A stretch of DNA of 64,000 nt from a virus: positions 1 through 64,000 of the IMG/VR virus record IMGVR_UViG_3300017991_000003; one strand, written 5' to 3'. Of the stretch, positions 11,232 to 55,396 are shown piece by piece. The translations under genes were made by a program, and so were the position numbers. A model generated the notes under the pieces. It did not search any database. It saw only the letters and a list, made by a program, of their open reading frames with translations, and was not told where the DNA came from. Within the stretch, counting starts at the first letter, position 1; each line of letters starts with the position of its first letter.

Positions 11232-11611
11232 TGGGCGCCAAGGGCAGTGGGCGTACACGCATCGAAGCGGACCTGATGCCTCGGGTCCGTGAGGGCTTTG
11301 CACGTCGTCTCCAAGACATGGGGACGATGAGCAAGCTCGGCGCCATCCTGCTCAAGCCCAACCAAGGGACACAGCGCCGCATCCGGCGTGAGACCCTCAA
11401 TATGGACACGGTCGGTGATCAGAAGCGTTGGCAGATGCTGCACAACGACTCCGAGCGCTATGAGGTCATCACGGCCAAGGACAGCAACACCAACCGCGGT
11501 AACTACTGCCACGTGACCTACATCGAGAAGGGTGACGACCTCCCCCTCGTCAAGAGCGAGAGCGAGCTCCGTTCTGAGGATAAAGAGCGCATCAAAGAGG
11601 AGGGCGGCTGA
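11231..11611 (+). CDS. hypothetical protein
   Basis: 126 aa ORF; ATGA-type overlaps at both ends. Confidence 0.5.
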   Translation: MGAKGSGRTRIEADLMPRVREGFARRLQDMGTMSKLGAILLKPNQGTQRRIRRETLNMDTVGDQKRWQMLHNDSERYEVITAKDSNTNRGNYCHVTYIEKGDDLPLVKSESELRSEDKERIKEEGG

Positions 11612-14600
11612 TGCTCGAAGGGCAGCACTTCCGGCAGTTCAAAGAGGCGCTGACTCGGTCGGAGGGCATCGTCAAGGGTATGTTCCCGATCGAGAGCCCC
11701 ACGAAGCGGCTCGAGGTCACGAACCTGCGTTGGACGAACGTAGGCCCGGACGTGGTCTTCGACGTCGAGAAGCAGAAGCAGGCCAAGCTGAAGGAGCAGT
11801 CGATCAACGCTGTTCTGGTCGGTGACGTCACGCTGCGTGAGCTCGGCTCCAAAGGGAAAGTCCTCGACCAGACCAAGCGCTACCCGATCCTCTCGGTGCC
11901 GCACCTGACGATGAACGCTGGCTACATCGTCAACGGCAAAGAGCAGCAGGTCGTCAACCAGTTCCGTCTGCGCCCTGGCATCTACACCCGGTTCACGGGG
12001 GACGACAACGTCGAGGCGTTCCTCAACACCACGGCGATCGGTACTTACAAGATCCTCCTCGACCGCTCTACCGGTGTGATCCGTATGCGGGTCGGCACGG
12101 CCGCACGCACCCCGATCTACTCGGTTCTGATCGCGGCTGGGCTGACTGATGCCGAGATCAAGACACTGCTGGGGACGGAGCTCTACGCGGAGAACAAGCG
12201 GGCGGCCAAGCCGGATCAGGACATCCCCAAGCTCCTGAAGCGGATGCGCCCGTACCTCAACCAGCCGGCGGAGCTGGGCGAGAAGTCAAAGCTCGTGCGT
12301 CAGTATCTGGAGTCGAAGCCCCTCGACCCCGCCGTGAACAAGGTCACGGTGGGCGAGGGTCTCGACCGCATCGACCGCAATGCCCTCGTGGCGGCGATCA
12401 AGAAGGTCCTCAAGCTGTCTAAGGGTGAGGCAGAGCCCGACGACACGGAGAGCCTTGCCTTCAAGTACATCCTCTCGATCGAGGACTTCGTGCCCGAGCG
12501 GCTCCAGAAGGCGGCCGACGGGCTCAAGTACAAGATCCAGGGCGACATGCGCCGCCGGGATGAGATCCGCTTGATCCTCCCGCCCAACCGCCTGAGCCAG
12601 CCGGTGGAGTCCTTTTTCACCACCTCGGAGTTCACGCGCTACTCGAGCCAGCACAACCCGCTGGACATGGCGGCGATCTCGAGCCTGACCACCACCATGG
12701 GTGATGGCGGGATCTCGAGCTCCCATGCGATCACCGACGAGGTGCGTACGATCCACCCGAGCCACTACGGTCTCCTGGATCCCATGCACACCCCGGAGGG
12801 GTGTTGCAGCGCTGACATGGAGGTCATGACGGATCAAGGCTGGGTTGCGTGGCCCGACGTAGACCGGACCACTCGGTTTGCTTGCCTAGACGCTGATCAA
12901 GGCCTTACCTATCACCGCGCCTCCGAGCTACACGTCTACGACCACGACGGGCCTCTCTACGGGTTCAAGTCGGAGACCCTGGAATACCTGCTGACCCCGA
13001 ATCATCGTCAGTGGGTCCGCCCGATTGAGGATCGATCGACGCGTGGGTATCGGTTTGAGACCGCGGAGGAGATGTACGGTAAACGTCGGCGAGTCCGCAT
13101 CGGCGGGCATTTGGCCTACGAGGGTCAGGCCGTCGATACCTGGCAGCTCCCTGAAATCCCTAAGGGAAGCAACTCGCAGAAGGTTTTCCCGGCCTTTGCT
13201 ATTGAGGACTGGGCTGAGTTCCTTGGCTGGTACCTGAGCGAAGGGAGCAGTCGGGGTTACGTGACTTCGATCACGCAGTATGAGGCTGCGAACCCGGAGA
13301 ATGTGGCTCAGATCGAGGCGCTGTTGACACGCATGCAGGTCGCGTGGAGCCGCAGCTCCAGGAGCTTCTCGATCCCAGGTAAGCAGCTAGTCAGCTACCT
13401 GCGTCAGTTCGGCCACTCCGATACCAAGTACATCCCTAAAGAGGCGTTCGACTTCCCGGCGGCGGCGCGTGAGGCCATGCTCGAGGCGCTAATGCTCGGA
13501 GACGGTCGCAAGGGCAAGGGCCGATGCTCTTGCTACTGCACTACATCTGAGCAGCTCGCCAAGGACGTGCAGCGCTTGGCCTTCGGCCTAGGGGTGTCGA
13601 GCAAAATCACCTTTGAGCCGGATACGCGGGAGGAGCACTACCGCGGGTGCTGGATCGTCCATCTCCACGCGCTCACTGAGCGTCAGGTGCTGCCACAAAT
13701 GCGCGCAGCAGGTAACGGCCAGTTCATCGAGGAATACCAAGGCAAGGTCTACTGCGCCACGGTTCCTGGTGGCCTGCTGTACATCCGTCGAGCCGGCAAG
13801 AGCGGTTTCTGGTCCGGCAATAGCAAGGTGGGCGTGACCGGTCACTTGGCCCTGGGCGCGCGCAAGAAGGGGCAGACCCTCTACGTCCCGGTCTATGACG
13901 CCAAGACGGGCAAGCGCGTGGAGAAGTCGGTTCAAGACCTGGACCAGGCCACCATCGCGTTCCCTGATCAGTACGACAACCTGCCCGACAAGCCGGGCGC
14001 GTCGGTCAAGGGCAAGCCCACGACCAAGCTGAAGAAGGTCAAGGCCCGTAGTCGTAACGAGTTCACGGAGGTGAGTCCGTCGGCTGTGGACTACATCTTC
14101 GTCAGCTCCGACAGCTTCTTCAGCTCGACCACGGCTGCGATTCCCTTCCTCCCCAACAACGACGCCAACCGCGTCCTGATGGGTGACAAGCATATCGAGC
14201 AGTCGGTGAACCTTGAGGACCCCGACGCGCCGATGGTCCAGCACCGCATCCGAGGCCGGGGCTATGAGGAGATGTTCGGGGAGCGCCTAGCCCCCCGGGC
14301 TATCGACCCCAAGACCGGCAAGCCCGTCGGCGGAGAGGTCCTCGAGGTCACCAAGACGCATATCACCATCCGGCCGGATGGCGGCGGCCGTCGACGCATC
14401 AAGGTCCCGATCCACGACCACTACCCGCTCAACAGCCGGACGTTCCTGCACGACGAGCCGGTGGTGAAGAAGGGTGACAAGGTCAAGCCTGGCCAGATCC
14501 TGGCCCGCAACAACTTCACCAAGGACGGAGACCTGGCGGTCGGCAAGAACCTCCGAGTCGCCTACACCGCGTACAAGGGCTACAACTTCGAGGACGGCAT

Positions 14601-17600
14601 CGTCATCTCGGAAGGGGCGGCTAAGAAGTTGACCTCGGTGCACAAGTACGAGGCCCGCGTTGAGAAGGGCAAGGGCATCACGGTCGGTGCAGACGCCTAC
14701 GCTGCCGCCTACCCCTCGGAGCTGGAGCATATCCGCGACCGTGCCCGGCGCTACGACGCTGTGGGTGTTATCAAGAAGGGCCAGCAGGTCGTCAAGGGCG
14801 ATGTCCTGATCCCCGCCATCCAGGAGGTCGAGGCGCATCCCGAGTACGACTACAAGCGTCTGCACCGCAGCGCCGGTCTCCGGCACATGGATATCAGCGA
14901 GACCTGGAACCACGACTTCCCTGGTGAGGTCGTAGACGTGGTCAAGACTCGGACATTCGTGAAGGTCGTGGTCAAGAGCAAGGAACCGATGCAGGTCGGT
15001 GACAAGCTGAGCTCGCGCCACGGCGCCAAGGGCATCGTCGTCAAGATCATCCCTGATGAGGAGATGTACAAGGACGAGGAAGGTGCGACGATCGATATCC
15101 TGCTCAACCCGGCGGGGGTGCCTGGTCGCGTCAACACGGGTCAGATGCTCGAAGCCGCGGCCGGCAAGCTGGCCCGTAAGACGGGCAAGAAGTACTACAC
15201 CGACAACTTCAACGAGAAGGGCAGCACGATCAAGAACCTCCGCAAGGAACTAGCGGGGGCCGGGATCTCCGATGAGGAGACGATCGTCGACCCGAAGACG
15301 GGGCACAAGCTCGAACGCGTCCTCGTCGGCGACACGCACATCTACAAACTGACCCACCAGGTCACGGGCAAGATGAAGGCCCGCGCCTCTGTGGGTGAGC
15401 CCTACTCGGTGGACGAGCAGCCCGTGAAGGGATCAGGGTCAGGTGCCCAGCGCATCGGCATCCTCGACACCTTCAGCCTGCTTTCGGGCGACGCCACGGC
15501 GTTCCTCGAGGATGCCTTCGGCCTCAAGAGCCAGAAGAACGACGAGTACTGGCGTGCCCTCCAGACTGGGCAAACACTGCCGCCTCCGAAGACCCCGTTC
15601 ATCGAGGAGAAGTTCGTGGCCATGCTCATTGGCGCGGGCATCGACCTCAAACAGAAAGGCAGTCGCATCGACGCGGGGCCGCTGACGGATGCTGAGGTTC
15701 TCTCAATGTCCAATGGCGCCATCGAGCGCCCGGTGGCGGTCAAGGCATCGAACCTCAAACCCGAGCGTGGCGGGCTCTTCGATCCCGGCAAGACCGGCGG
15801 TCCTGGCGGCAACTACTGGAACCATATCGATCTAGCCTCTGAGGTCGTGCACCCGCTGATGACCGACGCTGCGGCGTCCGTGGGCGGGTTCAAGACCAAG
15901 AAGGAGATGGACCAGATCATCCAGGGCCTGCTCGCGGTCACCGAGGAGGGCGAGGTCGTGGAGGCAGGCACCGCGGGTGCCGTGGCCGGTGGCTCGGGAG
16001 TGAAGCGCCGACTCGCTACGATCAACGTTCCGAGGGCCATCAAAGAGACCGAGTTGGTGGCGGCGACCGCCAAGGGCGCCAAGCTGGACAAGGCCCACAA
16101 ACGGCTGCGCTACCTGCGCTCGCTTCAAGCCAGTGGCCACTCGGCTGTTGATGCCTACATCAACAAGACCCTCCCGGTCATCCCCGCCAAGTTCCGTCAG
16201 ATCGCTCCGATGCCCGACGGCAGCCTGAGTGTGGCTGACGCCAACCACGGCTACCGAGAGGTCCTTCTCATCAACGAGAAGATCAAGCAGCTGAAGGCTC
16301 TCGGAGTCGACGAGCAGAACCTGCGAGCACTCAACAAGGCTCTGGCGGACGCTACGGCCGGCCTCGTAGGCACGGCGCCTCCGATCAGCCGAGGCAAGGT
16401 CTTCCGCGGCTTCGTCAGTCAGATCCACGGCCCGACGCCTAAGTCGGGTCTGGCGCAGTCGAAGCTCATGGGACGCAACCAAGACCTGAGCGGCCGGTCG
16501 ACTGTGATCCCCAACCCCAAGCTGGGGATGGACGAGGTCGGTATCCCGGCTGAGATCGCCTACAAGATCTACAAGCCCTTCGTCATCAAGCGTCTCGTCA
16601 CCGCCGGCCACAAGCCGCTAGATGCCCGCTCCATGGTCGAGCAGGGCCACCCGGCCGCCCGTCGTGCGCTCGAGGTGGAGGCTGAAGACCGCCCGGTGCT
16701 GATGAACCGCGCGCCCTCACTGCACAAGTTCAACATCCAGGCCCTCAAGCCCCGGGTGATCGACGGTAAGGCGGTCGAGGTCAACCCGCTCATCGTGAGC
16801 GGCTACAACATGGACTTCGACGGGGATACGGCCGGTCTACACGTTCCGGTCTCTGAAGAGGCCCGGCGCGAGGCTCGTGAGAAGCTGCTCCCGTCGCGCA
16901 ACCTGTTCAGCCCTCGGGAGGAGTTCGTGGTCCATGCCCCGACCAAGGAGACGATCCTCGGGGTGTACCTGATGACTACGCCCAAGGGACTTGCCTCCAA
17001 GTCGTTCTCCTCCGACCAGGAGATGGTCAAGGCATACCAGGCCAAGGAGATCAAGGTCAACGAAGCGGTGAAGGTCCAAGGCGCTGTGACCTGCGCCGGT
17101 CAGGCCATCTTCAACACGGCGCTTCCTATGGATCTGCGCGTGGGTCGTACGTCGGTGACCGGTCCGCGTTTGAGCCAGCTCCTGGTTCGCATCGGTCGGC
17201 AGTTGGGCCCCGACCGGGCCGCTCAAGTGATCTCGAAGATCAAGGACCTAGGCAACCACTACGTGACCGAGGTCGGGTTCTCCGTGAGTCTCCGGGACCT
17301 TGAGCTTGATACGAGCAAGCGGGATCAGATCGTCAACAAGCTCAAACGAGACGCCAAGACCAAGGGGTTCGATGAGGCGGCTGGCGAGGCGCTCGAAGAC
17401 ATCGCAGCGCTGCTGGCGTCGGCAGAGGATAACCGGTTCGTGGAGGCTGGCATCACATCCGGAGCCCTAGGCTCCAAAGGCATCCACCGGATGCTGGCGA
17501 GCACCGTGGCAGTGACGGATCACAAGGGCAAGACGGTCCCGATCCCGGTCGAGAAGTCCTATGCCGAGGGCCACGATCTAGGTACCTACTTGGGTACGAC

Positions 17601-18765
17601 CCCCGGCGCCCGGAAGGGCTTGATCGACAAAGGCCTGAGCGTGGCGGATACGGGCTACTTCAGCCGCATGCTCGTCAACAGCTCGATCGAGAACCAGGTG
17701 ACCGTCGCGGACTGCGGAACCAAGTCGGGCCAGGATCTGCCGCTCAACTCCCAGGAGCTCGCGCACCGCTACGGCGCCGAGGGCCGCTACCGCAACGTCT
17801 TGATCACCTCGGACATCGCCCGCCGCCTGCGCTCCCTAGGCCAGAAAACGGTCAAGGTCCGTAGCCCTCTGACTTGTCAGGCGCAGAAGGGCGTCTGTCA
17901 GAAGTGCTTCGGCCTACTCGAGGATGGCAAACCGCCTCGCATCGGTTATCACGTCGGTGCTCTGGCCGGCCAGACCCTGGGTGAGGTGGCTACCCAGCTG
18001 ACCCTGCGCAGCTTCCACACTGGTGGCGCTGTTGGTGGGCCCGACCTGGGTTTTGAGCGCATCCGTCAGATCATGGAGATGCCTCAAAGCATCCAAGGCA
18101 AAGCCATCCTGAGCGAGGCCACCGGCCAGGTGACGCGCATCGACACAGCGCCGGCGGGCGGTAGTTACGTCTACGTCGGCTCCGAGAAGCACTTCATCCC
18201 CAAGGAGCTGGGGGTAGCGGTGAGTCGAGGCCAGCGCGTGAAGGCGGGGGATCAGCTGAGCAAGTCGGGTGTGATCAAGCCTCAGGAGCTGCTAGATACG
18301 ACAGGGGACATCAATCGTGTCCGTACCCATCTGATCAACGAGCTGGATGCTAACTACAGAGCGGCCGGCAAGAAGGTCAACCGCCGGATCTTCGAGACGG
18401 TGGTCAAGCCTCTTACTGACCGTGCGACTGTGACGGACGTCGGAGACGCCGGCCGCCATTTCCCGGTACATGCCGGGGAGGTCATGCCTGTCAACCAGAT
18501 CGAGGAGATGAACCGCAAGCTCAAGCAGCGCCGTCTTCGCCCGATCCAGTTCGAGCCTATGATCATGGGTATCAAGCAGGCCCCGTTCCAGAGCGAGGAC
18601 TTCGTGGGAACGCTCACCCATGAGAAGCTCAAGCGGACCCTCACCGAGGCCCCTAGCCTGGGTAAAGCCACGGACCTTGTGCGCGGCCACCCGATGGCCC
18701 GCCTGGGTCTCACCAACCTCCGATCCATCGAAGCCATCAAACGACCTCAAGGGGTGAAGCGATGA
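11611..18765 (+). CDS. fused beta-beta' multisubunit DNA-dependent RNA polymerase, intein-containing
   Basis: Beta motifs: SQHNPLD...HPSHYG...HTPEG, IPFLPNNDANRVLMG, GDKLSSRHGAKGIVV (14998..15033), VNTGQMLE, GAQRIGILDTFSLL. Beta' motifs in the same frame: NHIDLASEVVHPL, NMDFDGD (about 16807..16827), PSLHKFNIQA. Beta' N-terminal Zn-ribbon appears absent. Confidence 0.85.
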   Translation: MLEGQHFRQFKEALTRSEGIVKGMFPIESPTKRLEVTNLRWTNVGPDVVFDVEKQKQAKLKEQSINAVLVGDVTLRELGSKGKVLDQTKRYPILSVPHLTMNAGYIVNGKEQQVVNQFRLRPGIYTRFTGDDNVEAFLNTTAIGTYKILLDRSTGVIRMRVGTAARTPIYSVLIAAGLTDAEIKTLLGTELYAENKRAAKPDQDIPKLLKRMRPYLNQPAELGEKSKLVRQYLESKPLDPAVNKVTVGEGLDRIDRNALVAAIKKVLKLSKGEAEPDDTESLAFKYILSIEDFVPERLQKAADGLKYKIQGDMRRRDEIRLILPPNRLSQPVESFFTTSEFTRYSSQHNPLDMAAISSLTTTMGDGGISSSHAITDEVRTIHPSHYGLLDPMHTPEGCCSADMEVMTDQGWVAWPDVDRTTRFACLDADQGLTYHRASELHVYDHDGPLYGFKSETLEYLLTPNHRQWVRPIEDRSTRGYRFETAEEMYGKRRRVRIGGHLAYEGQAVDTWQLPEIPKGSNSQKVFPAFAIEDWAEFLGWYLSEGSSRGYVTSITQYEAANPENVAQIEALLTRMQVAWSRSSRSFSIPGKQLVSYLRQFGHSDTKYIPKEAFDFPAAAREAMLEALMLGDGRKGKGRCSCYCTTSEQLAKDVQRLAFGLGVSSKITFEPDTREEHYRGCWIVHLHALTERQVLPQMRAAGNGQFIEEYQGKVYCATVPGGLLYIRRAGKSGFWSGNSKVGVTGHLALGARKKGQTLYVPVYDAKTGKRVEKSVQDLDQATIAFPDQYDNLPDKPGASVKGKPTTKLKKVKARSRNEFTEVSPSAVDYIFVSSDSFFSSTTAAIPFLPNNDANRVLMGDKHIEQSVNLEDPDAPMVQHRIRGRGYEEMFGERLAPRAIDPKTGKPVGGEVLEVTKTHITIRPDGGGRRRIKVPIHDHYPLNSRTFLHDEPVVKKGDKVKPGQILARNNFTKDGDLAVGKNLRVAYTAYKGYNFEDGIVISEGAAKKLTSVHKYEARVEKGKGITVGADAYAAAYPSELEHIRDRARRYDAVGVIKKGQQVVKGDVLIPAIQEVEAHPEYDYKRLHRSAGLRHMDISETWNHDFPGEVVDVVKTRTFVKVVVKSKEPMQVGDKLSSRHGAKGIVVKIIPDEEMYKDEEGATIDILLNPAGVPGRVNTGQMLEAAAGKLARKTGKKYYTDNFNEKGSTIKNLRKELAGAGISDEETIVDPKTGHKLERVLVGDTHIYKLTHQVTGKMKARASVGEPYSVDEQPVKGSGSGAQRIGILDTFSLLSGDATAFLEDAFGLKSQKNDEYWRALQTGQTLPPPKTPFIEEKFVAMLIGAGIDLKQKGSRIDAGPLTDAEVLSMSNGAIERPVAVKASNLKPERGGLFDPGKTGGPGGNYWNHIDLASEVVHPLMTDAAASVGGFKTKKEMDQIIQGLLAVTEEGEVVEAGTAGAVAGGSGVKRRLATINVPRAIKETELVAATAKGAKLDKAHKRLRYLRSLQASGHSAVDAYINKTLPVIPAKFRQIAPMPDGSLSVADANHGYREVLLINEKIKQLKALGVDEQNLRALNKALADATAGLVGTAPPISRGKVFRGFVSQIHGPTPKSGLAQSKLMGRNQDLSGRSTVIPNPKLGMDEVGIPAEIAYKIYKPFVIKRLVTAGHKPLDARSMVEQGHPAARRALEVEAEDRPVLMNRAPSLHKFNIQALKPRVIDGKAVEVNPLIVSGYNMDFDGDTAGLHVPVSEEARREAREKLLPSRNLFSPREEFVVHAPTKETILGVYLMTTPKGLASKSFSSDQEMVKAYQAKEIKVNEAVKVQGAVTCAGQAIFNTALPMDLRVGRTSVTGPRLSQLLVRIGRQLGPDRAAQVISKIKDLGNHYVTEVGFSVSLRDLELDTSKRDQIVNKLKRDAKTKGFDEAAGEALEDIAALLASAEDNRFVEAGITSGALGSKGIHRMLASTVAVTDHKGKTVPIPVEKSYAEGHDLGTYLGTTPGARKGLIDKGLSVADTGYFSRMLVNSSIENQVTVADCGTKSGQDLPLNSQELAHRYGAEGRYRNVLITSDIARRLRSLGQKTVKVRSPLTCQAQKGVCQKCFGLLEDGKPPRIGYHVGALAGQTLGEVATQLTLRSFHTGGAVGGPDLGFERIRQIMEMPQSIQGKAILSEATGQVTRIDTAPAGGSYVYVGSEKHFIPKELGVAVSRGQRVKAGDQLSKSGVIKPQELLDTTGDINRVRTHLINELDANYRAAGKKVNRRIFETVVKPLTDRATVTDVGDAGRHFPVHAGEVMPVNQIEEMNRKLKQRRLRPIQFEPMIMGIKQAPFQSEDFVGTLTHEKLKRTLTEAPSLGKATDLVRGHPMARLGLTNLRSIEAIKRPQGVKR
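12802..13821 (+). mobile_element. intein with LAGLIDADG homing-endonuclease domain inserted after the conserved TPEG of the beta module
   Basis: Begins CCSADMEVMTDQG (block A-like), TPNH (block B-like), two LAGLIDADG-like helices (LGWYLSEGS, EALMLGDGRKG), ends ...FWSGN followed by Ser; flanks (HTPEG / SKVGV...IPFLPNNDANR) restore beta-subunit colinearity. Boundaries within a few codons. Confidence 0.65.
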
Positions 18766-23135: not shown

Positions 23136-24218
23136 ATGGCCGGCTCCACGGGGCCGTACTCGCGTTCTCAACTCTGCCGCAAGTACGGGATCACTGACAG
23201 GACCCTGAGGGCCCTCGAGGATCGAGGGACTCTTGTGCTCACGTGGTACCCCCGCAACGGGCTCATGGTCACCGACCTTGAGTCGAATGACCAAAAGCGC
23301 ATTCTGGCGATGGCGCGCAATCACGTCATGTCATTTGGGAGGGCGCAGGGGATTCCCCGGCTGCCCTTCCTGCGCTTCCTGTTCCTTCGTTTTATCCAGG
23401 TCCCGGTGGAGGATCTGTACGCGGAGCTTCTGGACAGGAACATGATTGCGGCCCGTAGCTTCAAGCTCCCTCAGCTGAAGAAGATGCACAAGGCCTTTGT
23501 GGAGGCGGTCCCGCGCCCGCTTCAGAAGAAGGTACGGGCGCATGCCGAGGCCTCGACCGCCACGGAGAAGAAGCAGCTTGACGTGCTGCTCAAGGTCTGC
23601 GGCATCTACGAGGCCTACCACAACCCACAGCAGGAGCAGAGCTTCAAGTACCTGTCGGATCCTGAGATCAAACTAGGCATCGACATGGGTTTGAGCTCTC
23701 GCGCCAAACTGCCTGAGATTGCTGACTTCATCGCAGACGTGGCGGGCTTCTCGATCAACCTCGAGGCGCTCCTGTTCTACCACGTCCTCTACCACGACAT
23801 CAGCTTCCTGGACAACGACGAGATCCAGGCCTACCTGAAGGGCCTGAAGCCGTCGCATCGGGACCTCCTAGGTAAAGCCGTCGGCTCCACGATCCCCGAG
23901 CTCCGCATGGCTCTCGGCTTCGTCGAGGACATGTCGATCGAGGACACCGTGGTCCAGCTTCGGAACGCGGTCCTAACCAAGACCTCGGCGACCCTGCTTG
24001 CCCCCGGCTCCCAAGAGAACACCCGAGAGTTCAGCGCTCTCTTGCGCAACTTCGCCTACTTGGTCGATCGCTCGAATATCGAGGGTACCGGCAAAGGAGG
24101 GGCCGCCGCGTCTATGCCCGACGTGTTCAGCCAGTTCGAGATGAAGATCTCGCAGATGGATGGGGCTGGCTTGTTTCGGCTCCCCTCCGCCGAAGGAGAA
24201 GAACTGAACCATGGATGA
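23136..24218 (+). CDS. hypothetical protein (360 aa)
   Basis: ORF ends overlapping the terminase start. Confidence 0.55.
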   Translation: MAGSTGPYSRSQLCRKYGITDRTLRALEDRGTLVLTWYPRNGLMVTDLESNDQKRILAMARNHVMSFGRAQGIPRLPFLRFLFLRFIQVPVEDLYAELLDRNMIAARSFKLPQLKKMHKAFVEAVPRPLQKKVRAHAEASTATEKKQLDVLLKVCGIYEAYHNPQQEQSFKYLSDPEIKLGIDMGLSSRAKLPEIADFIADVAGFSINLEALLFYHVLYHDISFLDNDEIQAYLKGLKPSHRDLLGKAVGSTIPELRMALGFVEDMSIEDTVVQLRNAVLTKTSATLLAPGSQENTREFSALLRNFAYLVDRSNIEGTGKGGAAASMPDVFSQFEMKISQMDGAGLFRLPSAEGEELNHG

Positions 24219-26040
24219 TGCCACGTTCGGGGGTACGCCGCTCTCCTCGAGCAATGTGGAGCTCCTTGAGGATCTGCACGAGCTCTTCCGAGATAACGAC
24301 GACATCACTGACGAGCAGTGGGAGGAGCTAGACTGGTTCGCCTACAACCAGGAAGCTGAAGAGGCCGCAGAGGAGTCTGCGGACCGGGCTGATCCGATCA
24401 ACCCGCCTCCGGGCCTTGCTGAGGGCCTGGCTCACGGCGGCGTCATTATGGCCACCATCTCGGATATGGTGGAGAACCTCCTGACGGTCGACCAGGAGCC
24501 TTTCAGCTTCGTCGGACGGGAGTACCTGAAGGGGCTGTACGACCCGGTAGAAGAGTACCCGGAGGGGTGCCGTAACCAGATCTGGATCGCCGGCCGTCAG
24601 GTCGAGAAGTCAACCACCCAGAGCGCCAAGTCCGTGGCCTTGGGGGCGCTGACCAAGAGCTACAAGACCCTGTACGTGGCGCCCCGCTTCGACCAGGTCC
24701 GGGTCTTCAGCCAGCAGCGCTTCAAGCCCATGTGCGAGGACAGCCCGAACCTCGCCCCGTGGATCAAGCCCAGCCGGACGCTGTGGCAGGTCTCCGCCCG
24801 AGAGTTCATGAACGGGGCGTTCTACAACTTCCGGAGCTGTTACCTGAGCGCCGACAACGCTCGAGGCATTACCTGCCACCACCTCAACGTCGACGAGATC
24901 CAGGACATCGTCTCTGATGCTATCCCTGTTCTGGAGGAGTGCCAAAGCCACGCTACGGCCGAACTGCGGTTCCGCTCCTATGCCGGGACGCCCAAGACGA
25001 CCTCCAATGTCCTGAGCCGGCGGTACGAGAACAGCTGCCAGTTCGAGTGGTTGAGTCAGTGCGCGGCGTGCAACCACTGGAACTTCATGGACGAGCGGAT
25101 CGTGGGCGACGACTTCTTCGCCTGCGTCCGGTGCGGCAAGGAGATCAACCCCAAGGTGGGGCAGTTCGTGCCTAAGCGCCCCGAGCTCCTCGACAAGTGC
25201 TGGGGGTTCCGAATCAGTCAGCTGATGGTCCCGTTCCAGAGTCACGCGGACATCATCGCCAAGCGGGACGACCCTAACTACAGCCGCCAGAAGTACTTCA
25301 ACGAGTGCTTGGGTCTGCCATACGACGAGGGCCAGCTGGTCCTGACCGAGGCTGTGATGCGGGACGCCTGCGACGCGGATCGAGGGATGTGGACGATCCA
25401 ACAGTGCCGCGAGCTGGCCGACCGCGGCGTGCCGCTCTTCGGCGGGGTCGATTACGGGCCGGGTGAGGGTGAGGATCCTTCTTACACAGTGCTGACTATC
25501 GGCTGGTGGGCGACCGCCGGCCACTTCGAAGTCCTCTGGATGCGCAGACTGGTTGGCGATGAGTCGAACCTGGCCCTCCAGACCAAGGTCATCAACCAGT
25601 ACTTCACCGAGGCCCGTGTCCGCTGGATGGGGGCTGACTGGGGGTTCGGTGCTGCTATCAACAAGCAGCTGATCCACGAGCACGGCTGGCACCGCGTGGC
25701 TCATCAGCGTTGCCTGCTCGAGTTCCAGTACGGCGGCCAGAAGCAGATGGCTTCCTGGAACGCCAAGGCGGAGCGGTACATCATCGACCGCAACCAGGGC
25801 ATGGAGAAGCTGATCGACTCGATCCGCACCAATCAGGTCCGATTCTTCCGAATGGAGGAGATGTCCCAGTTCGTTGACGACTTCACGACTATCTACGTGG
25901 AGTTCGATGAGCGGCGGAACACCCGGAAGTACGACCACGACCTGCCGGACGATGCTTTCCACTCGGTCAACTACGCCTACATGGCGGGCCTCCAGCACCG
26001 GAATAAGCTGGTCCCGAGCTGGCTGACTCCGCTGGATTGA
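24211..26040 (+). CDS. terminase large subunit (ATPase + RNaseH-like nuclease) with inserted Zn-ribbon
   Basis: Deviant Walker A IAGRQVEKST, Walker B-like HHLNVDEIQD, C-terminal GVDYGPGEGEDPSYTVLTIGW acidic nuclease-type motif; CAACNHW...CVRCGK ribbon. Confidence 0.55.
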   Translation: MDDATFGGTPLSSSNVELLEDLHELFRDNDDITDEQWEELDWFAYNQEAEEAAEESADRADPINPPPGLAEGLAHGGVIMATISDMVENLLTVDQEPFSFVGREYLKGLYDPVEEYPEGCRNQIWIAGRQVEKSTTQSAKSVALGALTKSYKTLYVAPRFDQVRVFSQQRFKPMCEDSPNLAPWIKPSRTLWQVSAREFMNGAFYNFRSCYLSADNARGITCHHLNVDEIQDIVSDAIPVLEECQSHATAELRFRSYAGTPKTTSNVLSRRYENSCQFEWLSQCAACNHWNFMDERIVGDDFFACVRCGKEINPKVGQFVPKRPELLDKCWGFRISQLMVPFQSHADIIAKRDDPNYSRQKYFNECLGLPYDEGQLVLTEAVMRDACDADRGMWTIQQCRELADRGVPLFGGVDYGPGEGEDPSYTVLTIGWWATAGHFEVLWMRRLVGDESNLALQTKVINQYFTEARVRWMGADWGFGAAINKQLIHEHGWHRVAHQRCLLEFQYGGQKQMASWNAKAERYIIDRNQGMEKLIDSIRTNQVRFFRMEEMSQFVDDFTTIYVEFDERRNTRKYDHDLPDDAFHSVNYAYMAGLQHRNKLVPSWLTPLD

Positions 26041-26115
26041 GTTGCTCCTTGACCGCAGCAACTTAGGATTGGCTAATAGGTTGCGCTCCTTGGACGCAGT
26101 CTCGTACCATTTCAC

Positions 26116-26137
26116 TGGCACTGGCTCCCAGTGTCAG
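26116..26137. promoter_or_regulatory. 22-nt conserved element TGGCACTGGCTCCCAGTGTCAG (copy 1)
   Basis: 20 nt upstream of the 26157 start; preceded by ATTT and hairpin-like repeats as in copy 2. Confidence 0.4.
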
Positions 26138-26156: not shown

Positions 26157-27293
26157 ATGAACTCCCTCGCCCTCTACTTCATGGCCCGGAGCGCGGCCCG
26201 TGATCTAGTGCGTAGTGATGTCCCCCTCAACGAGGGAATCGCCAAGCACGCCTCGGAGCACGGCCTGAGCCAGCTTCAGATCCAGCGCGTGGTGGAGGCC
26301 GCCAACCACGAAGCAAACGCCCTCCTCCAGAAAACAGCGGAGGACAAGACCTTCAGCTTCGACTTGGCCAGCCTGGACGGGGTCCTCTCGGCCCTGACGC
26401 CGGGCACGGCGGCCACTACGGTCAGCCTTGGGAAGCTAGCTGAGGCTGCTGACGCCCTTCTGGAGCCTCGAACGCGGTTTGATGAGCGTGTCGAGGCTCT
26501 TCCGCGTGAGTCCGAGGACGCCAAGATTGCCCGCTTCCGCTCGACGATGCACGCCCTGGACAAGGTGGCTGATCTGGCCGCTACCCAGATGCGGGTTGTC
26601 CAGATGGACCGCATGCGTCAGATGGAGAAATGCGCCAGCGGATTCGAGCGTCTGGTGACCCAGGCCGGGGAGTACATCCGCCGCGGCGGCGCCCTCGAGG
26701 ACATGCGCAAGTACGCGCAGGCCGTCGAGCCGGGCTTCGACCGAGGCTGGGACAAGATCTTCGGCCGGGTCCAAGAAGAGCTCCAGAAGCTCGGTCACCC
26801 CTTCACGGGCGAGCTGGCCTCGGCGACCGAGCTGATGGCTGACCGCAAGGACCGGCCCGGAGGCCCGCTGCCCCACGCGGGCACCCTGAAGGTCACTAAC
26901 GGCCGCCACGCCCTGGCCGGCGAGCTCAGCACCCTCCGGGACAATGTCTCGTTCCTGGATCGCCTGGCTGACCGTACCCGGGAGATCGACAACTTCAACA
27001 GAGCTGTCCGGGTCTCTCAGCGCATGATCATCGACAACCAGGACGTGGACACCCTGTTCGCCAAGGAAGCTGAGAAACTGGCTGCCTTTACCGGGGAGGA
27101 GCTTGGGGAGCACATCGAGAAGCTCGCCAGGAAGGACTCGAACATCTCTACGGTGGAGAAGGGTCTGGTCGGCACTGCTGTTGACCATACCGGTAAAGCC
27201 TCGATCAAGGCCGTGATGAAGCGCGCCCTCTCTGATCACATCCCTGGGGCCTTTGTCGGTCCCGGTACCCCTGCTGCCTACCGCTCCAAATGA
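26157..27293 (+). CDS. hypothetical protein (378 aa)
   Basis: ORF after a 116-nt intergenic region carrying repeats; no motif recognised. Confidence 0.55.
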   Translation: MNSLALYFMARSAARDLVRSDVPLNEGIAKHASEHGLSQLQIQRVVEAANHEANALLQKTAEDKTFSFDLASLDGVLSALTPGTAATTVSLGKLAEAADALLEPRTRFDERVEALPRESEDAKIARFRSTMHALDKVADLAATQMRVVQMDRMRQMEKCASGFERLVTQAGEYIRRGGALEDMRKYAQAVEPGFDRGWDKIFGRVQEELQKLGHPFTGELASATELMADRKDRPGGPLPHAGTLKVTNGRHALAGELSTLRDNVSFLDRLADRTREIDNFNRAVRVSQRMIIDNQDVDTLFAKEAEKLAAFTGEELGEHIEKLARKDSNISTVEKGLVGTAVDHTGKASIKAVMKRALSDHIPGAFVGPGTPAAYRSK

Positions 27294-43142: not shown

Positions 43143-43174
43143 GTGCTCACCGAGGGCTTCTCGATAAGGGGCCG

Positions 43175-44554: not shown

Positions 44555-44703
44555 GGTCGGCCTCCAGTGTTGGGGTGATGATGGTGCCGGGGTAGACATT
44601 CCCCGGATCACTAAACTCATGCCCGAACCCTCGCTTGTTCTGGCGCTTTTGGGTACCTACACTTCTTGTCGATGATGAGTCGGCGCCTCTGCGGGGCGGC
44701 TTC

Positions 44704-44736
44704 TTTCATGGGCAGGGCCTCGACGCAGCGGCAGCG
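44704..44736 (+). terminator. long GC hairpin followed by ATTTT on + strand; orientation and function unresolved
   Basis: AGGGCCTCGACGC-AGCGGCA-GCGTCGGGGCCCT, about 13 bp with one G-U; sits between sigma-factor stop and membrane-protein start. Confidence 0.35.
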
Positions 44737-44753
44737 TCGGGGCCCTATTTTGT

Positions 44754-44775
44754 GGCACTGGCTCCCAGTGTCAGA
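44754..44775. promoter_or_regulatory. 22-nt conserved element TGGCACTGGCTCCCAGTGTCAG (copy 2), palindromic core ACTGG-N3-CCAGT
   Basis: Exact duplicate of 26116..26137; overlaps sigma-factor stop codon. Confidence 0.4.
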
Positions 44776-45619
44776 GATTGGGATCGATGTCCTCGAGCAG
44801 CACCCACAGCTCTCGAAGCCCCTCGTTCTCGATCTGCCTCACACGCTCCCGAGTCCGCCGGTAGAAGCGTGCGAGCTCCCCATAGGGGGTCGGGTTCTCG
44901 TGCCCGAACCCGTAGTGCCGGCGGATGATGTCCTCAGCCTCCGGCTTCAGCTGCGCCAGGGCCCAGTTCAAGAGGTCCCGGTTCTCCTGATTGATGACCC
45001 GATCGAGCATCGCCGGGGCCGGTCCTAGCTGAACCCCCTGCGCTGTGTCCTGGGTGAGCCGGCCGCACGCCTCGGTGATCTCGGTGTCCAGGGTCACCAA
45101 CCGACTATCCCGAGCGTGCCTGTACTTCCGGATCTTGTCCGGGTCCCAGCCGAGCTCCTCGAAGATCTCCTCCTCGTCCGGGTAGTAGCCGTTGGTCTTC
45201 AACATCCGGTACGCCTTGGTCTGGTAGTCGGTGACCAGGGACCGGTGGCGAATAGGCTTGGCTGAGAGGTTGCGGTACTCCCGACGGACCTCGGCGTCGA
45301 TCCACCAGACGGCGTAGGTACTGAACTTGACGTGGCTCTTCGTGCCCTTGACGACCCGGTCAAGGTCGAAATCCCTGAGCGCCTTCATAAGCCCCACGAA
45401 CCCCGCGGAGATCATGTCGTGATAGCGCGCGTCCTTGGCCTCGACGAAGCGCTGCACTCGTCGGATTACCAGGCGGACATTGTGTTCGACCAGCCGCTGA
45501 GCTGCGGCATCATCCCCCTCGCGTAGCGCTTTGACGAGCAGCTCGCGTTCTTCCTCCTTCGACAGGACTGGGTGATCAGCTGCCTTGTGTAGGGCGATCT
45601 CGTCGAAGGACCAGTCCAC
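44771..45619 (-). CDS. sigma-70-family RNA polymerase sigma factor
   Basis: Region 2: LVEHNVRLVIRRVQRF...GFVGLMKALRDFD...KFSTYAVWWI; region 4 helix-turn-helix: NPTPYGELARFYRRTRERVRQIENEGLREL. Confidence 0.75.
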   Translation of the reverse strand: MDWSFDEIALHKAADHPVLSKEEERELLVKALREGDDAAAQRLVEHNVRLVIRRVQRFVEAKDARYHDMISAGFVGLMKALRDFDLDRVVKGTKSHVKFSTYAVWWIDAEVRREYRNLSAKPIRHRSLVTDYQTKAYRMLKTNGYYPDEEEIFEELGWDPDKIRKYRHARDSRLVTLDTEITEACGRLTQDTAQGVQLGPAPAMLDRVINQENRDLLNWALAQLKPEAEDIIRRHYGFGHENPTPYGELARFYRRTRERVRQIENEGLRELWVLLEDIDPNL

Positions 45620-47609: not shown

Positions 47610-47611
47610 AG

Positions 47612-47654: not shown

Positions 47655-47668
47655 GACCTCTGGGGGAC

Positions 47669-53525: not shown

Positions 53526-53953
53526 CAGGCTCCTTCGTCAGCCCCCTCAGTGAGCTGCTCGGTGTGGAACAGCGGGTCCTTGCCGACCGACTGTAGGACG
53601 CGGTTGAAGATGTCGCGGTTGGCCACGACGCAGCGGTGCTGGAACTCCTCGACGATGCCCTCCATGTTCTCGGCAATCTCTTCCCGGGAAGCAGGCACGT
53701 TCACGGTGACGTGAACCTCATGGCTCGAGTAGGCGCCGTAGACCTCGGAGATGCGGGCGTGGTGGCCGACCGAGATCGATCCGACATTAGCGGGGTTGGT
53801 CATGATGTGGCGGGTGTCGATGATGTGGGTGTTGCTATAGCGGAGGACGTACTTGGTGCGTCCTCGCGGGATGGCTCGAATCGTCACCTCGAGGGTGACC
53901 GGGCGGGCTGTGATCTCACAGCCCTGGATAGTCGATGACATGGCAGCGGGCAT
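53525..53953 (-). CDS. hypothetical protein (142 aa)
   Basis: ATGA-type coupling with neighbours. Confidence 0.5.
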   Translation of the reverse strand: MPAAMSSTIQGCEITARPVTLEVTIRAIPRGRTKYVLRYSNTHIIDTRHIMTNPANVGSISVGHHARISEVYGAYSSHEVHVTVNVPASREEIAENMEGIVEEFQHRCVVANRDIFNRVLQSVGKDPLFHTEQLTEGADEGA

Positions 53954-55379
53954 CCTTGTAGGAGGCTAGCCGGCGGCGCCCGAGCGCGGCCAGAACGGGG
54001 GAGTTGGTGTGGACCGGGTCCACCACGATCGGGACCGGCTTCCCGTCGACCTCTCGCTCGATACGCCCTCGGGTCTGGCGAACATCACGACGGGGAGAGG
54101 CGAGTACAGCGGCATCCTTCCATGGTACATCAAGGGCCTTGTCAGCAATGCCGTAAGTGCAGAAGGTGACCGGCTTGTCGAGGGAGGCGTCCCGGCCGAC
54201 GCGCCCAACCTTGGCATGCTTACCGAAGAACAACCCGCTCGAGCCCGGATGCCGGGCTTCCCATAGCTCGTGCAGGTGGATGAGCTGCTTCTGGAACTGG
54301 CCGAATACCATGACCTGACGCCCCTTTTGGAACAGGTGGCCGACGATGTTAACCAACCAGGCTGAGTACGCAGGGTCAGCGATGACCGTCTGAATGTAGG
54401 CCGTGTAGTTGTGCTTGTCCTTCCAGGCGACGTCCGGGGGAGTCACCATCGGGTTGAGCGGGGGCCGGCCCGGGCAGCTAGTGGGAAAGCCGGCGAAGTC
54501 CGGGCACTCACGGCATCCTGCGAGTGTTGTCATCCCGACCTTCGCCTTGCACCACGCCATCCGGTAGTCGTCGTACTCGACGAGGGTCGTAACTGGGTAG
54601 CGGTAGATCGTGGCAGGGACCAGCTTGGCCGCGGCTTCGACCACGTGGTTACCCAGCGCCGCCTTGAACACCCACTCGAGCCCATCCCGGCGATCCGGGG
54701 TGGCGGTCAGGGCGATGCTCCAGGTGAAGGCTAGGTTCGTGAGGCTGCCGAAAAAGCAAGGTGCTGAGAACACATGCGCCTCGTCGACGAGGAGCATGTC
54801 GAGTTCCATCGGGTCTTCGGCCCACTCTTGTCGCCAGAGGCTCTGACCGACCATGATCGTGAACCGAGCTCGCGTGTCTCGACGCATCTGCCCGTGGCCT
54901 CCGCCGAGGATCTCGACGGTGGCCTCGGGCAGGAAGCGCTCGATCGCACCTTTCCACTGCTCGGCGATGTCGACCTGATCGACCAGCACGCCGACCCGCG
55001 CCGCTTGCAACGCGTCAGCGCAGTAGAGGCCCATGACTGTCTTGCCAGTGCCGCAATCAGCCCGCAGAAGCAGCCCCTCCTTGCGAGGCAGCTCATGTAG
55101 GATCTCACTGACCGGCGTCTTCTGGTTGTCTCTCAGCTCGCCCTTGAACTGCCGCTGTGGGTGCTCTTGGATCGGAGCCCGAGCCGGCAGCGCTCGGGTG
55201 AAGTTCTCTAGCCAGAAGCGAGGTACAAGCAGGGAGCCGTCACTGAACTCATGCCACAACGGGAAGGGCTCTCGATCTCCTTCAGGGCGCGCGATAAGGT
55301 CTTGGTCCCGATCAAAGGGCCACAAGGCAGGATCGCCGAGGATCTCGGCAGGGACGTGGACGAGGCCGCGTAGTTTCAT
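53916..55379 (-). CDS. superfamily-2 DEAH-box helicase
   Basis: Motif I ADCGTGKT, motif II LLVDEAHVF, C-terminal helicase-like region. Confidence 0.65.
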   Translation of the reverse strand: MKLRGLVHVPAEILGDPALWPFDRDQDLIARPEGDREPFPLWHEFSDGSLLVPRFWLENFTRALPARAPIQEHPQRQFKGELRDNQKTPVSEILHELPRKEGLLLRADCGTGKTVMGLYCADALQAARVGVLVDQVDIAEQWKGAIERFLPEATVEILGGGHGQMRRDTRARFTIMVGQSLWRQEWAEDPMELDMLLVDEAHVFSAPCFFGSLTNLAFTWSIALTATPDRRDGLEWVFKAALGNHVVEAAAKLVPATIYRYPVTTLVEYDDYRMAWCKAKVGMTTLAGCRECPDFAGFPTSCPGRPPLNPMVTPPDVAWKDKHNYTAYIQTVIADPAYSAWLVNIVGHLFQKGRQVMVFGQFQKQLIHLHELWEARHPGSSGLFFGKHAKVGRVGRDASLDKPVTFCTYGIADKALDVPWKDAAVLASPRRDVRQTRGRIEREVDGKPVPIVVDPVHTNSPVLAALGRRRLASYKDARCHVIDYPGL

Positions 55380-55396
55380 GGCATTGGTAGGGGGTG

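What the first reader, a model, noticed from the sequence alone, without database searches (positions are those of the whole stretch)
26116..26137. Exact 22-nt element TGGCACTGGCTCCCAGTGTCAG present twice in intergenic DNA
Identical copies at 26116..26137 and 44754..44775, both preceded by ATTT and by GC-rich hairpins. The core ACTGG-N3-CCAGT is palindromic, so it could be a dimeric regulator operator or a promoter for the element's own transcription machinery. In a window with little other non-coding DNA, an exact 22-mer repeat is unlikely by chance.
Basis: seen in the sequence. Interest (0 to 1): 0.6.

Follow-up and report, generated by a model that had tools for sequence, protein, structure and literature searches.

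The report
Dispersed 21-bp palindromic repeat in phage
The exact 22-mer is real and is the best-preserved pair of a small family of 21-bp palindromic sites in an uncultured large phage that encodes its own RNA polymerase and sigma factor; related phages carry their own co-varying versions at the same gene junctions, so it is most likely a binding site for a phage-encoded factor, a known kind of feature whose function is still unproven.

Summary
It is not a two-copy curiosity. The unit is a 21-nt inverted repeat, TGGCAC-N9-GTGTCA, ideally a 9-bp stem with a 3-nt loop. The phage has at least six copies: four in the window, including 55379-55399 and 62206-62226, and two just beyond it. Three related uncultured phages carry their own versions (TGGTAC..GTACCA, TGATAG..CTATCA) at the same syntenic junctions. 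Arms match within a genome and co-vary between genomes. Copy 1 starts 5 nt after a conserved sigma70-like promoter (TTGCGC-18-TACCAT), 19 nt before the first head-module gene. Copy 2 overlaps the stop codon of the phage sigma-factor gene. My best reading (about 0.4) is a dispersed operator or roadblock site for a phage-encoded sequence-specific, probably dimeric, DNA-binding factor. The closest analogues are the 17-bp dyad repeats of Cluster O mycobacteriophages and the dispersed repressor sites of phiC31. A strand-specific hairpin (RNA or ssDNA) is the main rival, supported by a G.T-versus-A.C mismatch bias. The promoter, sigma54 and terminator readings are not supported. This is a new member of a known kind; interest is moderate.

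The parts
26116..26137 (+). Copy s1 of the element (exact 22-mer). The 21-nt dyad is TGGCACTGG-CTC-CCAGTGTCA. It lies 5 nt after a -10-like TACCAT and 19 nt before the ATG at 26157.
   Evidence: (27.5 bits)
44753..44774 (+). Copy s2 (exact 22-mer). Bases 44771-44773 are the TGA stop codon of the minus-strand sigma gene. On the + strand it directly follows a terminator-like hairpin and T-run.
55379..55399 (+). Copy s3 (degenerate), TGGCATTGGTAGGGGGTGTCA. It fills the whole gap between the stop codon of the 135-aa gene and the ATG of the ResIII helicase gene. Phages B, C and D have a site at the same place.
   Evidence: 19.3 bits
62206..62226 (+). Copy s4, TGGCACTCCTTCGCAGTGTCA, with perfect arms. 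By GC3 it lies inside the real minus-strand gene 62441..62076, about 125 nt upstream of the next ATG at 62083.
   Evidence: 25.9 bits
7757..7777 (-). Weak candidate copy. The minus strand reads TGGCACTGGCTACCGCTGCCA, identical at 13 of 14 bases to the left part of the 22-mer. It lies in the 3' end of gene 6811-7839.
   Evidence: 18 bits, E 0.012
36031..36051 (+). Weak candidate copy, TGACACTGGACGACGGTGTCA, inside gene 35781-36674. It may be a chance match.
   Evidence: 17.7 bits, E 0.019
26081..26110 (+). Sigma70-like promoter TTGCGC-18-TACCAT immediately upstream of s1. Phages B and C have TTGTGC-17-TACCCT and TTGTGC-17-TACACT at the same place.
44635..44663 (+). Second promoter of the same type, TTGTTC-17-TACACT, 90 nt upstream of s2. 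The TACACT is conserved in phages B and D.
44714..44752 (+). Terminator-like hairpin (13 pairs) plus ATTTTG between that promoter and s2. Together with the promoter it would define a + strand RNA of about 85 nt.
44771..45619 (-). Phage sigma-70-family factor gene (282 aa). Its stop codon lies inside s2.
11611..18765 (+). Fused beta-beta' multisubunit RNA polymerase gene (2384 aa). It is listed as context, as the phage's own transcription machinery.
   Evidence: homologues appear
24211..26040 (+). Large terminase gene, the gene upstream of s1.
26157..27293 (+). First gene of the head module, downstream of s1 (378 aa, conserved, function unknown).
53916..55379 (-). ResIII/DEAD helicase gene. Its start codon shares its A with the last base of s3.

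Best explanation
The 22-mer is the best-preserved pair of a family of 21-bp dyad-symmetric sites with consensus TG-R-Y-A-S-N9-S-T-R-Y-CA. In this phage the arms are TGGCAC..GTGTCA. I propose that a phage-encoded, sequence-specific and probably dimeric DNA-binding protein binds these sites on duplex DNA. Bound at s1, it would cover the predicted start site of the conserved sigma70-type promoter of the head-tail operon and so gate late-gene initiation. Bound at s2, at the end of the sigma-factor gene, it would block read-through from the replication/sigma operon into the small membrane-protein cassette. The two strongest sites would therefore guard the two entrances of the 18.6-kb head, tail and small-cassette block. 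The weaker sites, before the helicase gene and inside or next to other genes, would act as additional roadblocks or low-affinity sites. What is shown: the site family, its syntenic conservation, the co-variation of the arms, and the position of s1 relative to a conserved promoter-like sequence. What is inferred: protein binding, duplex rather than hairpin recognition, repression or roadblock action, and the timing.
For: (1) The repeat is exact and far beyond chance. The arm pattern is enriched at 15 hits against 5.8 expected. (2) The sites are syntenic in relatives and carry genome-specific arms. Phage B has TGGTAC..GTACCA after the sigma stop codon, before the head gene and before the helicase gene. 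Phage C has TGGCAC..GTACCA. Phage D has TGATAG..CTATCA at two sites. In 147 kb of relatives' loci the covariance model finds only these sites. (3) The invariant positions are symmetric (T1 G2 A5 / T17 C20 A21), and the length is fixed at 21 nt in all 12 distinct sites (11 aligned, plus s6), as expected for two half-sites. (4) At site 3 the arms are conserved although the sense-RNA hairpin is essentially absent in the window phage, B and C (0 to -0.6 kcal/mol). Sequence is kept there, not an mRNA fold. (5) s1 starts 5-6 nt after a conserved -10 in three phages, a classical operator position. (6) There is precedent. Cluster O mycobacteriophages carry more than 30 copies of a 7+3+7 dyad repeat, one third of them in ORFs, predicted to bind a dimeric protein (PMC4351075). 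phiC31 and L5 have 18-30 dispersed repressor sites (PMC4557955).
Against: No DNA-binding regulator was recognised among the roughly 60 ORFs I scanned with Pfam and the 20 of those also run against PHROGs, or in 3 PDB sequence searches covering the 1724-aa protein and two small proteins next to the sites. Departures from perfect symmetry are almost all G.T on one strand: 14 cells against 1 A.C cell, or 10 against 1 unique events, p about 0.01. The hairpin is more stable on that strand at 10 of 12 sites. A symmetric duplex-binding dimer does not predict this. The inner 3 bp are palindromic in 5 of the 12 distinct sites (6 of 12 if one G.T is allowed), and s5 changes them on both sides (TCC/GGA against TGG/CCA). 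That points to pairing, or to quasi-palindrome template switching. The centre-to-centre spacing of the conserved arms, about 15 bp, is long for a simple helix-turn-helix dimer. No integrase or lysogeny genes were seen, so this is not a classical immunity repressor.
Confidence: 0.4

Rival explanations
1. The functional form is a strand-specific stem-loop in RNA. At s1 it would be the 5'-terminal hairpin of the late mRNA, acting as a stabiliser or as a promoter-proximal nut/put-like signal. Elsewhere it would be a hairpin in the transcript antisense to the local genes, for example stopping or processing antisense transcription. A factor would recognise the base of the stem.
For: On the G.U-capable strand 89.9% of cells pair, against 76.8% on the complement, and the covariation score of 0.41 was reached by 2 of 500 shuffles. 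The G.T against A.C bias is 10 to 1 in unique events. RNA energies favour one strand at 10 of 12 sites. With the conserved promoter, the predicted start is G2 of the element, so the RNA would begin with a fully paired 8-bp hairpin. The inverted sixth copy lies in a gene of the opposite orientation, so the better hairpin is antisense to the local gene at s2-s6.
Against: Loops are not conserved (CTC, TCG, AGT, TAT, GCC). The sense-RNA hairpin vanishes at site 3 in three phages although the arm sequence is kept. The antisense reading needs long antisense transcripts, and no local + strand promoter was found upstream of s3, s4 or s5. There is no U-run after the hairpin on either strand. The orientation rule fails at s1 in the window phage and in B. 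There are no Rfam hits.
Confidence: 0.25
2. The element is a functionless or selfish short palindrome. It would be a REP- or MITE-like repeat, or a quasi-palindrome kept perfect by template switching, that persists where coding constraint is low.
For: Copies sit in the few non-coding gaps or at ORF ends. s1 and s2 are identical, as if copied recently. Some copies are degenerate. Symmetric inner changes can arise by template-switch mutation (established knowledge, not tested here).
Against: The same three junctions carry the element in phages whose flanking proteins are only 56-78% identical, and the arms are homogenised within each genome. No HUH or tyrosine transposase was found in the scanned ORFs. 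The relatives have no extra copies, so there is no sign of spread.
Confidence: 0.1
3. The element is a single-stranded DNA hairpin signal tied to replication or to a hairpin-type promoter. Candidates are a primase or ssi-like loading site, or an N4-like template-strand promoter hairpin.
For: The ideal form has a 9-bp stem and a 3-nt loop. The better hairpin is on the template strand of the local gene at s2-s6. Orientation flips across the divergent junction next to the Toprim primase and PolA genes. The stem base is conserved while the top and loop vary, as for hairpins recognised at their foot (my knowledge of RSF1010 ssiA and RepB').
Against: With DNA parameters several copies do not fold at all. 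No N4-like single-subunit polymerase was detected. A start site right after s3 or s5 would fall on or inside the next ORF. s1 would fire antisense into the terminase gene.
Confidence: 0.08
4. The element is itself a promoter for the phage RNA polymerase-sigma holoenzyme. One form is a minus-strand promoter using CTGACA as -35 and the downstream AAAT as -10.
For: The scan calls CTGACA-16-CAAAAT on the minus strand at s2. All in-window copies read xTGACA on that strand, and 4 of 5 have RAAAY 16-17 nt later (read).
Against: The arms of B, C and D do not resemble a -35 element, although the sigma region 4.2 and region 2 residues are invariant in the family (mapping them to the E. coli contact residues is my inference). 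The start would fall inside the ORF at s3 and s5. s1 would be antisense. I recognised no promoter for most operons, by this or any consensus.
Confidence: 0.07

Closest known systems
17-bp dyad-symmetric repeats of Cluster O mycobacteriophages (5'-TGTTCGGNNNCCGAACA; PMC4351075)
   Same: Both are short inverted repeats with a 3-nt centre, dispersed through a phage genome that is not obviously temperate. Both occur partly between genes and partly inside ORFs, and most copies are not at promoters. The function is unknown in both, and the Cluster O repeat is predicted to bind a dimeric protein.
   Different: Corndog has 34 invariant copies. Here I found at least 6 copies in about 108 kb, with degenerate inner arms. 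Here one copy sits at a conserved promoter start site. Relatives carry co-varying versions at syntenic junctions, and there is a strand-biased G.T pattern.
Dispersed repressor sites of Streptomyces phage phiC31 (conserved inverted repeats) and the stoperators of mycobacteriophage L5 (PMC4557955; details from my own knowledge)
   Same: Many copies of one binding site are scattered in short intergenic gaps of both gene arms, and they act on elongation as well as on initiation. In L5 the orientation follows the direction of transcription, as it does here at 5 of 6 sites.
   Different: Those phages are temperate and their repressors are known. L5 sites are asymmetric 13-mers bound by a monomer. 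Here the site is a dyad, no repressor or integrase was found, and the phage carries its own RNA polymerase.
Lambda nutL/nutR boxB and HK022 putL/putR
   Same: Identical small hairpins occur in a few copies per genome, close to promoters and terminators. Cognate specificity differs between related phages.
   Different: Recognition of boxB depends on the loop, and those signals act in the sense RNA. Here the loops vary and the sense hairpin is lost at one conserved site. No N- or Q-like protein was identified.
N4 virion-RNA-polymerase hairpin promoters
   Same: Both are DNA hairpins with a short stem and a 3-nt loop, and the better hairpin is on the template strand.
   Different: N4 needs an N4-type single-subunit polymerase, which was not detected here. 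The positions relative to ORFs do not fit start sites.
Sigma54 -24/-12 promoter (TGGCAC-N5-TTGCW)
   Same: It shares the TGGCAC hexamer.
   Different: There is no GC or TTGC at the -12 position, since GG-N10 is followed by CA. The phage sigma factor belongs to the sigma70 family. Relatives have TGGTAC or TGATAG instead.

Membership tests
Sigma54-dependent promoter | GG and GC dinucleotides 10 nt apart (TGGCAC-N5-TTGCW) | tested here: not met
   Read directly from TGGCACTGGCTCCCAG. The bases 10 nt after GG are CA and there is no TTGC.
Sigma54-dependent promoter | An RpoN-type sigma factor is available | tested here: not met
   The phage sigma factor matches Sigma70_r2, r3 and r4. The host is unknown.
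Sigma70-type promoter (the element itself) | -35 and -10 hexamers 16-18 nt apart, kept in relatives, with a start site upstream of a gene | tested here: not met
   There is only one minus-strand consensus call, at s2. The arms vary between phages while the sigma contact regions are invariant. The start would lie inside ORFs at s3 and s5.
Intrinsic terminator | A GC-rich hairpin followed by a U-run | tested here: not met
   The element is not called by the scan. There is no T-run after it on either strand. The neighbouring hairpin at 44714-44746 does qualify.
Dispersed dyad repeats or operators (Cluster O 17-mer, phiC31 inverted repeats) | Inverted-repeat arms conserved among several dispersed copies in one genome | tested here: met
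   Searches show six copies with arms TGGYAY/GTGTCA.
Dispersed dyad repeats or operators (Cluster O 17-mer, phiC31 inverted repeats) | A cognate DNA-binding protein that binds the duplex site | not testable with these tools
   No HTH or RHH hit passed threshold in Pfam or PHROGs, and the three PDB sequence searches found nothing. EMSA is needed.
L5-type stoperator | An asymmetric site whose orientation follows transcription, in a temperate phage with a repressor | tested here: inconclusive
   The orientation of the G.T asymmetry follows local transcription at s2-s6 but not at s1. The site is a dyad, not asymmetric. No lysogeny genes were seen.
nut/boxB-type or put-type RNA signal | A hairpin with a conserved loop, present in the sense transcript downstream of a promoter | tested here: not met
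   The loops differ at every copy. The sense hairpin is 0 to -0.6 kcal/mol at site 3 in three phages.
N4-type hairpin promoter | A template-strand DNA hairpin plus an N4-like virion RNA polymerase | tested here: inconclusive
   The hairpin geometry fits. No such polymerase was detected in the window. About 100 kb of the genome was not seen.
REP/RAYT or IS200-type hairpin repeats | Many copies, a flanking GTAG or cleavage motif, and an HUH or Y1 transposase | tested here: not met
   There are few copies, at syntenic positions. No transposase appeared in the scanned ORFs.
Any Rfam family | A match at the gathering threshold | tested here: not met
   One search returned 0 matches in the window.

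The most novel reading that the evidence does not exclude
The element is a polarity-aware hairpin signal, read as a single strand whose orientation follows transcription or replication direction, and used by the machinery of a phage lineage that carries its own bacterial-type fused beta-beta' RNA polymerase and sigma factor. Possible forms are a promoter-proximal nut/put-like modifier of that polymerase, a device that stops antisense transcription, or a replication-linked loading site. Its specificity would have co-evolved in each phage.
Probability: 0.15. Interest if true: 0.7.

Novelty: new member of a known kind. Interest (0 to 1): 0.45.

Why it matters
These phages belong to an uncultured lineage with no cultured relative above 30% terminase identity. 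They encode a fused beta-beta' RNA polymerase and a sigma factor, and nothing is known about how such phages schedule gene expression. This site family, together with the two conserved sigma70-like promoters next to its strongest copies, gives the first concrete cis-elements to test. The experiments would be pulldown of the binding factor, start-site mapping, and swapping the window-type and D-type arms. If the sites are operators or roadblocks, they extend the dispersed dyad repeat phenomenon of actinobacteriophages, which is still unexplained, to a very different phage group. They also add syntenic, co-varying versions that make the cognate factor findable by correlation.

Tried and rejected
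1. The exact and loop-degenerate 22-mer was scanned in metagenome and genome collections. Only unrelated coding hits with other loops came back, and the source contig is not in those collections.
2. Megablast of 24-30 kb against phages found nothing. tblastn with the terminase gave at most 30% identity to cultured phages.
3. The sigma-factor profile scan of IMG/VR returned mostly unrelated sigma factors.
4. The sigma54 promoter, intrinsic terminator, Rfam family, tRNA and CRISPR-like array readings are all rejected (there is no regular spacing).
5. I first thought all copies were co-oriented on the + strand, which would suggest a packaging- or replication-polar signal. The sixth copy is inverted, so that is rejected.
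6. I thought the TGA embedded in the element explained the asymmetry because it serves as a stop codon. It is a real stop codon only at s2 and s3. At 62206 the ORF ending there is spurious by GC3.
7. A search for local + strand promoters before s3-s5 found none.
8. I looked for the binding protein with Pfam on about 60 ORFs, PHROGs on 20 of those ORFs, and PDB profile searches of two small proteins next to the sites. Nothing was found.
9. Strain-level variants of B, C and D are identical at the sites, so microdiversity gave no information.
10. More distant relatives have other small hairpins before the head gene, but too little sequence was available to define their repeat families.

Full report
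**Observation.** The 22-mer TGGCACTGGCTCCCAGTGTCAG occurs exactly twice in the window, both times on the + strand, at 26116-26137 and 44753-44774. No dinucleotide shuffle gave any match, even with 3 mismatches allowed. The ATTT upstream of both copies is there. The hairpin upstream of copy 2 is strong: 44714-44746, 13 pairs, followed by ATTTTG. The hairpins upstream of copy 1 are weaker.

**Context.**
- The window is the first 64 kb of a 174,660-bp metagenomic contig. Gene coordinates in ENA ERZ27256773 k141_2423138 match the window's exactly.
- A 91.6-kb IMG/VR fragment of the same phage covers window position 16652 onward plus 44 kb beyond the window end.
- The element is a high-GC (63%) tailed phage. 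Plus-strand genes run to 42985 and minus-strand genes run from 63841 down to 43175.
- It encodes a fused beta-beta' multisubunit RNA polymerase (11611-18765), a sigma70-family factor (44771-45619, minus strand) and a large terminase (24211-26040).
- It also encodes a head protease and a major capsid protein, plus UvrD, ResIII, RecA-like and RuvC proteins. PolA and a Toprim primase lie just past the window.
- There is no close cultured relative: terminase identity is at most 30%.
- The nearest described group by theme is the RNA-polymerase-encoding Caudovirales of PMC7481178. I did not test membership in that group.

**Placement of the two exact copies.** Copy 1 (s1) lies between the terminase gene and the first gene of the head module, 19 nt before its ATG. 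Copy 2 (s2) begins at the stop codon of the sigma gene; the TGA is part of the element. It is followed, in sigma sense, by an A-rich spacer and the strong hairpin.

**It is a family, not a pair.**
- A search for the arms alone (TGGCAC-N9-GTGTCA, up to 2 mismatches) gave 15 hits against 5.8 expected.
- 62206-62226 (s4) has perfect arms. By GC3 it lies inside the real gene 62441..62076.
- 55379-55399 (s3) has one arm mismatch. It fills the gap between the stop codon of a 135-aa gene and the ATG of the ResIII helicase gene.
- Just beyond the window, s5 (TGGCACTCCTCGGGAGTGTCA, about 66.04 kb) ends 3 nt before the next ATG.
- s6 (TGGTACTGGAGTCCAGTGTCAG, about 74.2 kb) is inverted relative to s1-s5. 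It lies inside a 1258-aa gene that is itself on the opposite strand.
- A covariance model built from the sites adds two weak in-window candidates, 7757-7777 and 36031-36051.

**Relatives.** I fetched relatives through the sigma factor, the head-module protein and UvrD. Three related uncultured phages share the gene order.

| Phage | Source loci | Site before head gene (s1) | Site after sigma stop (s2) | Site before helicase (s3) |
|---|---|---|---|---|
| B (54 kb assembled) | L141, L028, L037 | TGGTACTGGTTACAGGTACCA | TGGTACTGGTATCTAGTACCA | TGGCACCAGTTCCCCGTACCA |
| C | L004, L041, L031 | TGGCACCCCATACCGGTACCA | a longer imperfect hairpin instead | TGACACCCATAACCAGTACCA |
| D | L034, L143 | region not recovered | TGATAGTGGGGCCCACTATCA | TGATACTGGGCCCCACTATCA |

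The assignment of L031 to phage C rests on sample co-occurrence and motif similarity, and is not proven.
- The covariance model finds nothing else in 147 kb of these loci.
- All 12 distinct sites are 21 nt long, and T1 G2 A5 / T17 C20 A21 are invariant (the 11 aligned, plus s6).
- Arms match within a genome and co-vary between genomes. There is no strain-level variation.

**Neighbouring signals.**
- The s1 intergenic region is conserved in the window phage, B and C, with 77% mean column identity.
- It contains a sigma70-like promoter: TTGCGC-18-TACCAT in the window, and TTGTGC-17-TACCCT and TTGTGC-17-TACACT in B and C. This promoter ends 5-6 nt before the element.
- The predicted start site therefore falls on G2 of the element. 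No start site has been mapped.
- Only five matches to TTGNNN-16/18-TACNNT exist in the whole window. A second one (44635-44663, TTGTTC-17-TACACT) is conserved in B and D, 90 nt upstream of s2 on the + strand.
- The terminator-like hairpin lies between that promoter and s2. This predicts a + strand RNA of about 85 nt. The fold of 44669-44775 is -58.4 kcal/mol, z -4.1.

**What the element is not.**
- It is not a sigma54 promoter. There is no GC or TTGC at the -12 position, the phage sigma is a sigma70-family protein, and relatives have TGGTAC or TGATAG.
- It is not an intrinsic terminator. There is no T-run after it on either strand.
- It matches no Rfam family and there are no tRNAs in the window.
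- It is unlikely to be the promoter of the phage polymerase. The residues I take to be the -35 and -10 reading residues of the sigma factor are invariant across the family (the mapping is my inference), while the arms change. A start site would fall inside ORFs at s3 and s5. The single minus-strand consensus call at s2 is not reproduced in B or C.

**Duplex site or hairpin?**

For a sequence-specific duplex site:
- The outer arms are conserved within a genome even at site 3, where the sense-RNA hairpin is essentially absent in the window phage, B and C.
- The invariant positions are symmetric and the length is fixed.
- s1 sits in an operator position, on the predicted start site.
- s1 and s2, the two identical and strongest copies, sit at the two entrances of the 18.6-kb head, tail and small-cassette block.

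For a single-stranded hairpin:
- On one strand 89.9% of cells pair, against 76.8% on the other.
- Transition-type mismatches are G.T on that strand in 14 cells, against 1 A.C cell. That is 10 against 1 unique events, p about 0.01.
- The hairpin is more stable on that strand at 10 of 12 sites.
- s5 changes the inner stem on both sides (TCC/GGA against TGG/CCA).

The better-pairing strand is antisense to the local gene at s2-s6, but it is the sense strand at s1 in the window phage and in B. Orientation therefore tracks transcription, or the divergent junction next to the primase gene, only imperfectly. General strand composition explains only about a 1.3-fold bias (my estimate). I regard this asymmetry as unexplained.

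**Verdict.** My best-supported reading, at about 0.4, is a dispersed operator or roadblock site for a phage-encoded sequence-specific factor. It would gate the late promoter at s1 and insulate the late block at s2. The rivals are:
- a strand-specific RNA hairpin (0.25);
- a functionless palindromic repeat (0.1);
- a single-stranded DNA signal (0.08);
- a promoter in its own right (0.07).

The closest known analogue is the 17-bp 7+3+7 dyad repeat of Cluster O mycobacteriophages. Corndog has 34 copies, one third of them in ORFs. Their function is unknown and they are predicted to bind a dimeric protein (PMC4351075). The next closest are the dispersed repressor sites of phiC31 and L5 (PMC4557955). 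This is a new member of a known but poorly understood kind. It gains interest from its host, a phage lineage with its own bacterial-type transcription machinery, and from the syntenic co-varying versions that make the factor identifiable.

**Limits.** About 66 kb of the genome was never scanned for the 22-mer, and about 95 kb was never scanned with the degenerate model. The host is unknown. No expression data were available. No binding protein was identified.

Noticed in passing
window 11611-18765 (+): A single 2384-aa ORF fuses RNA polymerase beta (Rpb2 domains 3 and 6) and beta' (Rpb1 domains 1, 2, 3 and 5). There is a weak LAGLIDADG-like hit at residues 622-681, which could be an intein or homing-endonuclease insertion. 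Homologues of 2380 aa and 2041 aa occur in relatives.
   Followed up: partly
window 44635-44752 (+): A conserved sigma70-like promoter (TTGTTC-17-TACACT) plus a strong terminator hairpin with a T-run predict a + strand small RNA of about 85 nt. It would be antisense to the leader between the sigma gene and the membrane-protein cassette. The promoter and hairpin are kept in phages B and D, with compensatory changes.
   Followed up: partly
window 44587-44624: A non-coding block, which on the minus strand reads GGGCATGAGTTTAGTGATCCGGGGAATGTCTACCCCGG, is nearly identical in phages B and D despite indels that break any reading frame. It lies upstream of the cassette's start codon and its function is unknown.
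   Followed up: no
window 8809-9339 (+): An HNH homing endonuclease (NUMOD4 + HNH_3) sits among the genes upstream of the RNA polymerase gene.
   Followed up: no
window 20415-20699 (+): A small PAAR-motif protein is encoded upstream of the terminase gene. Some virion or spike genes therefore lie outside the s1-s2 block.
   Followed up: no
window 47900-48200 and 53376-53516: Long low-complexity codon repeats lie in minus-strand genes. One is an acidic (E/D-rich) tract in the 588-aa protein and the other is a lysine/alanine-rich tract in the RecA-like 536-aa protein.
   Followed up: no
L004 about 5800-6020 (phage C, also L041 and L043): A tandem duplication of about 115 bp covers the 3' end of the terminase gene and the promoter region just upstream of phage C's copy of the element. 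The first promoter copy has a mutated -10 (TACACC) and is followed by a different small palindrome.
   Followed up: no
L143 782-3550 (phage D): The UvrD-like helicase of phage D is 922 aa long and carries an intein (PF14890). The window phage's 648-aa homologue lacks it.
   Followed up: no
window 31702-31800, 33064-33158, 47610-47668, 43100-43170: Terminator-like GC hairpins followed by T-rich tails flank the major capsid gene. Others follow the 588-aa gene and close the minus-strand cassette at the convergence point (read).
   Followed up: no
window 63025-63375 (-): A 116-aa protein gives weak, sub-threshold hits to TFIIB-type zinc ribbons (E 0.003). This is of possible interest in a phage with its own multisubunit polymerase, but it may be noise.
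   Followed up: no
L254 4619-4753 and L141 2799-2858: The divergent junction between a large gene and the Toprim primase gene carries a conserved TTAGCTTAT motif in this phage and in B. It is a candidate early-promoter or origin region, and the orientation of the element flips across it.
   Followed up: partly
window 45621-46067 (-): The 148-aa protein translationally coupled to the sigma gene is conserved in all four phages (55-62% identity). It has only marginal PDB profile hits: mitochondrial IF3 at E 0.002 and a chain named Gp39 at E 0.05.
   Followed up: partly
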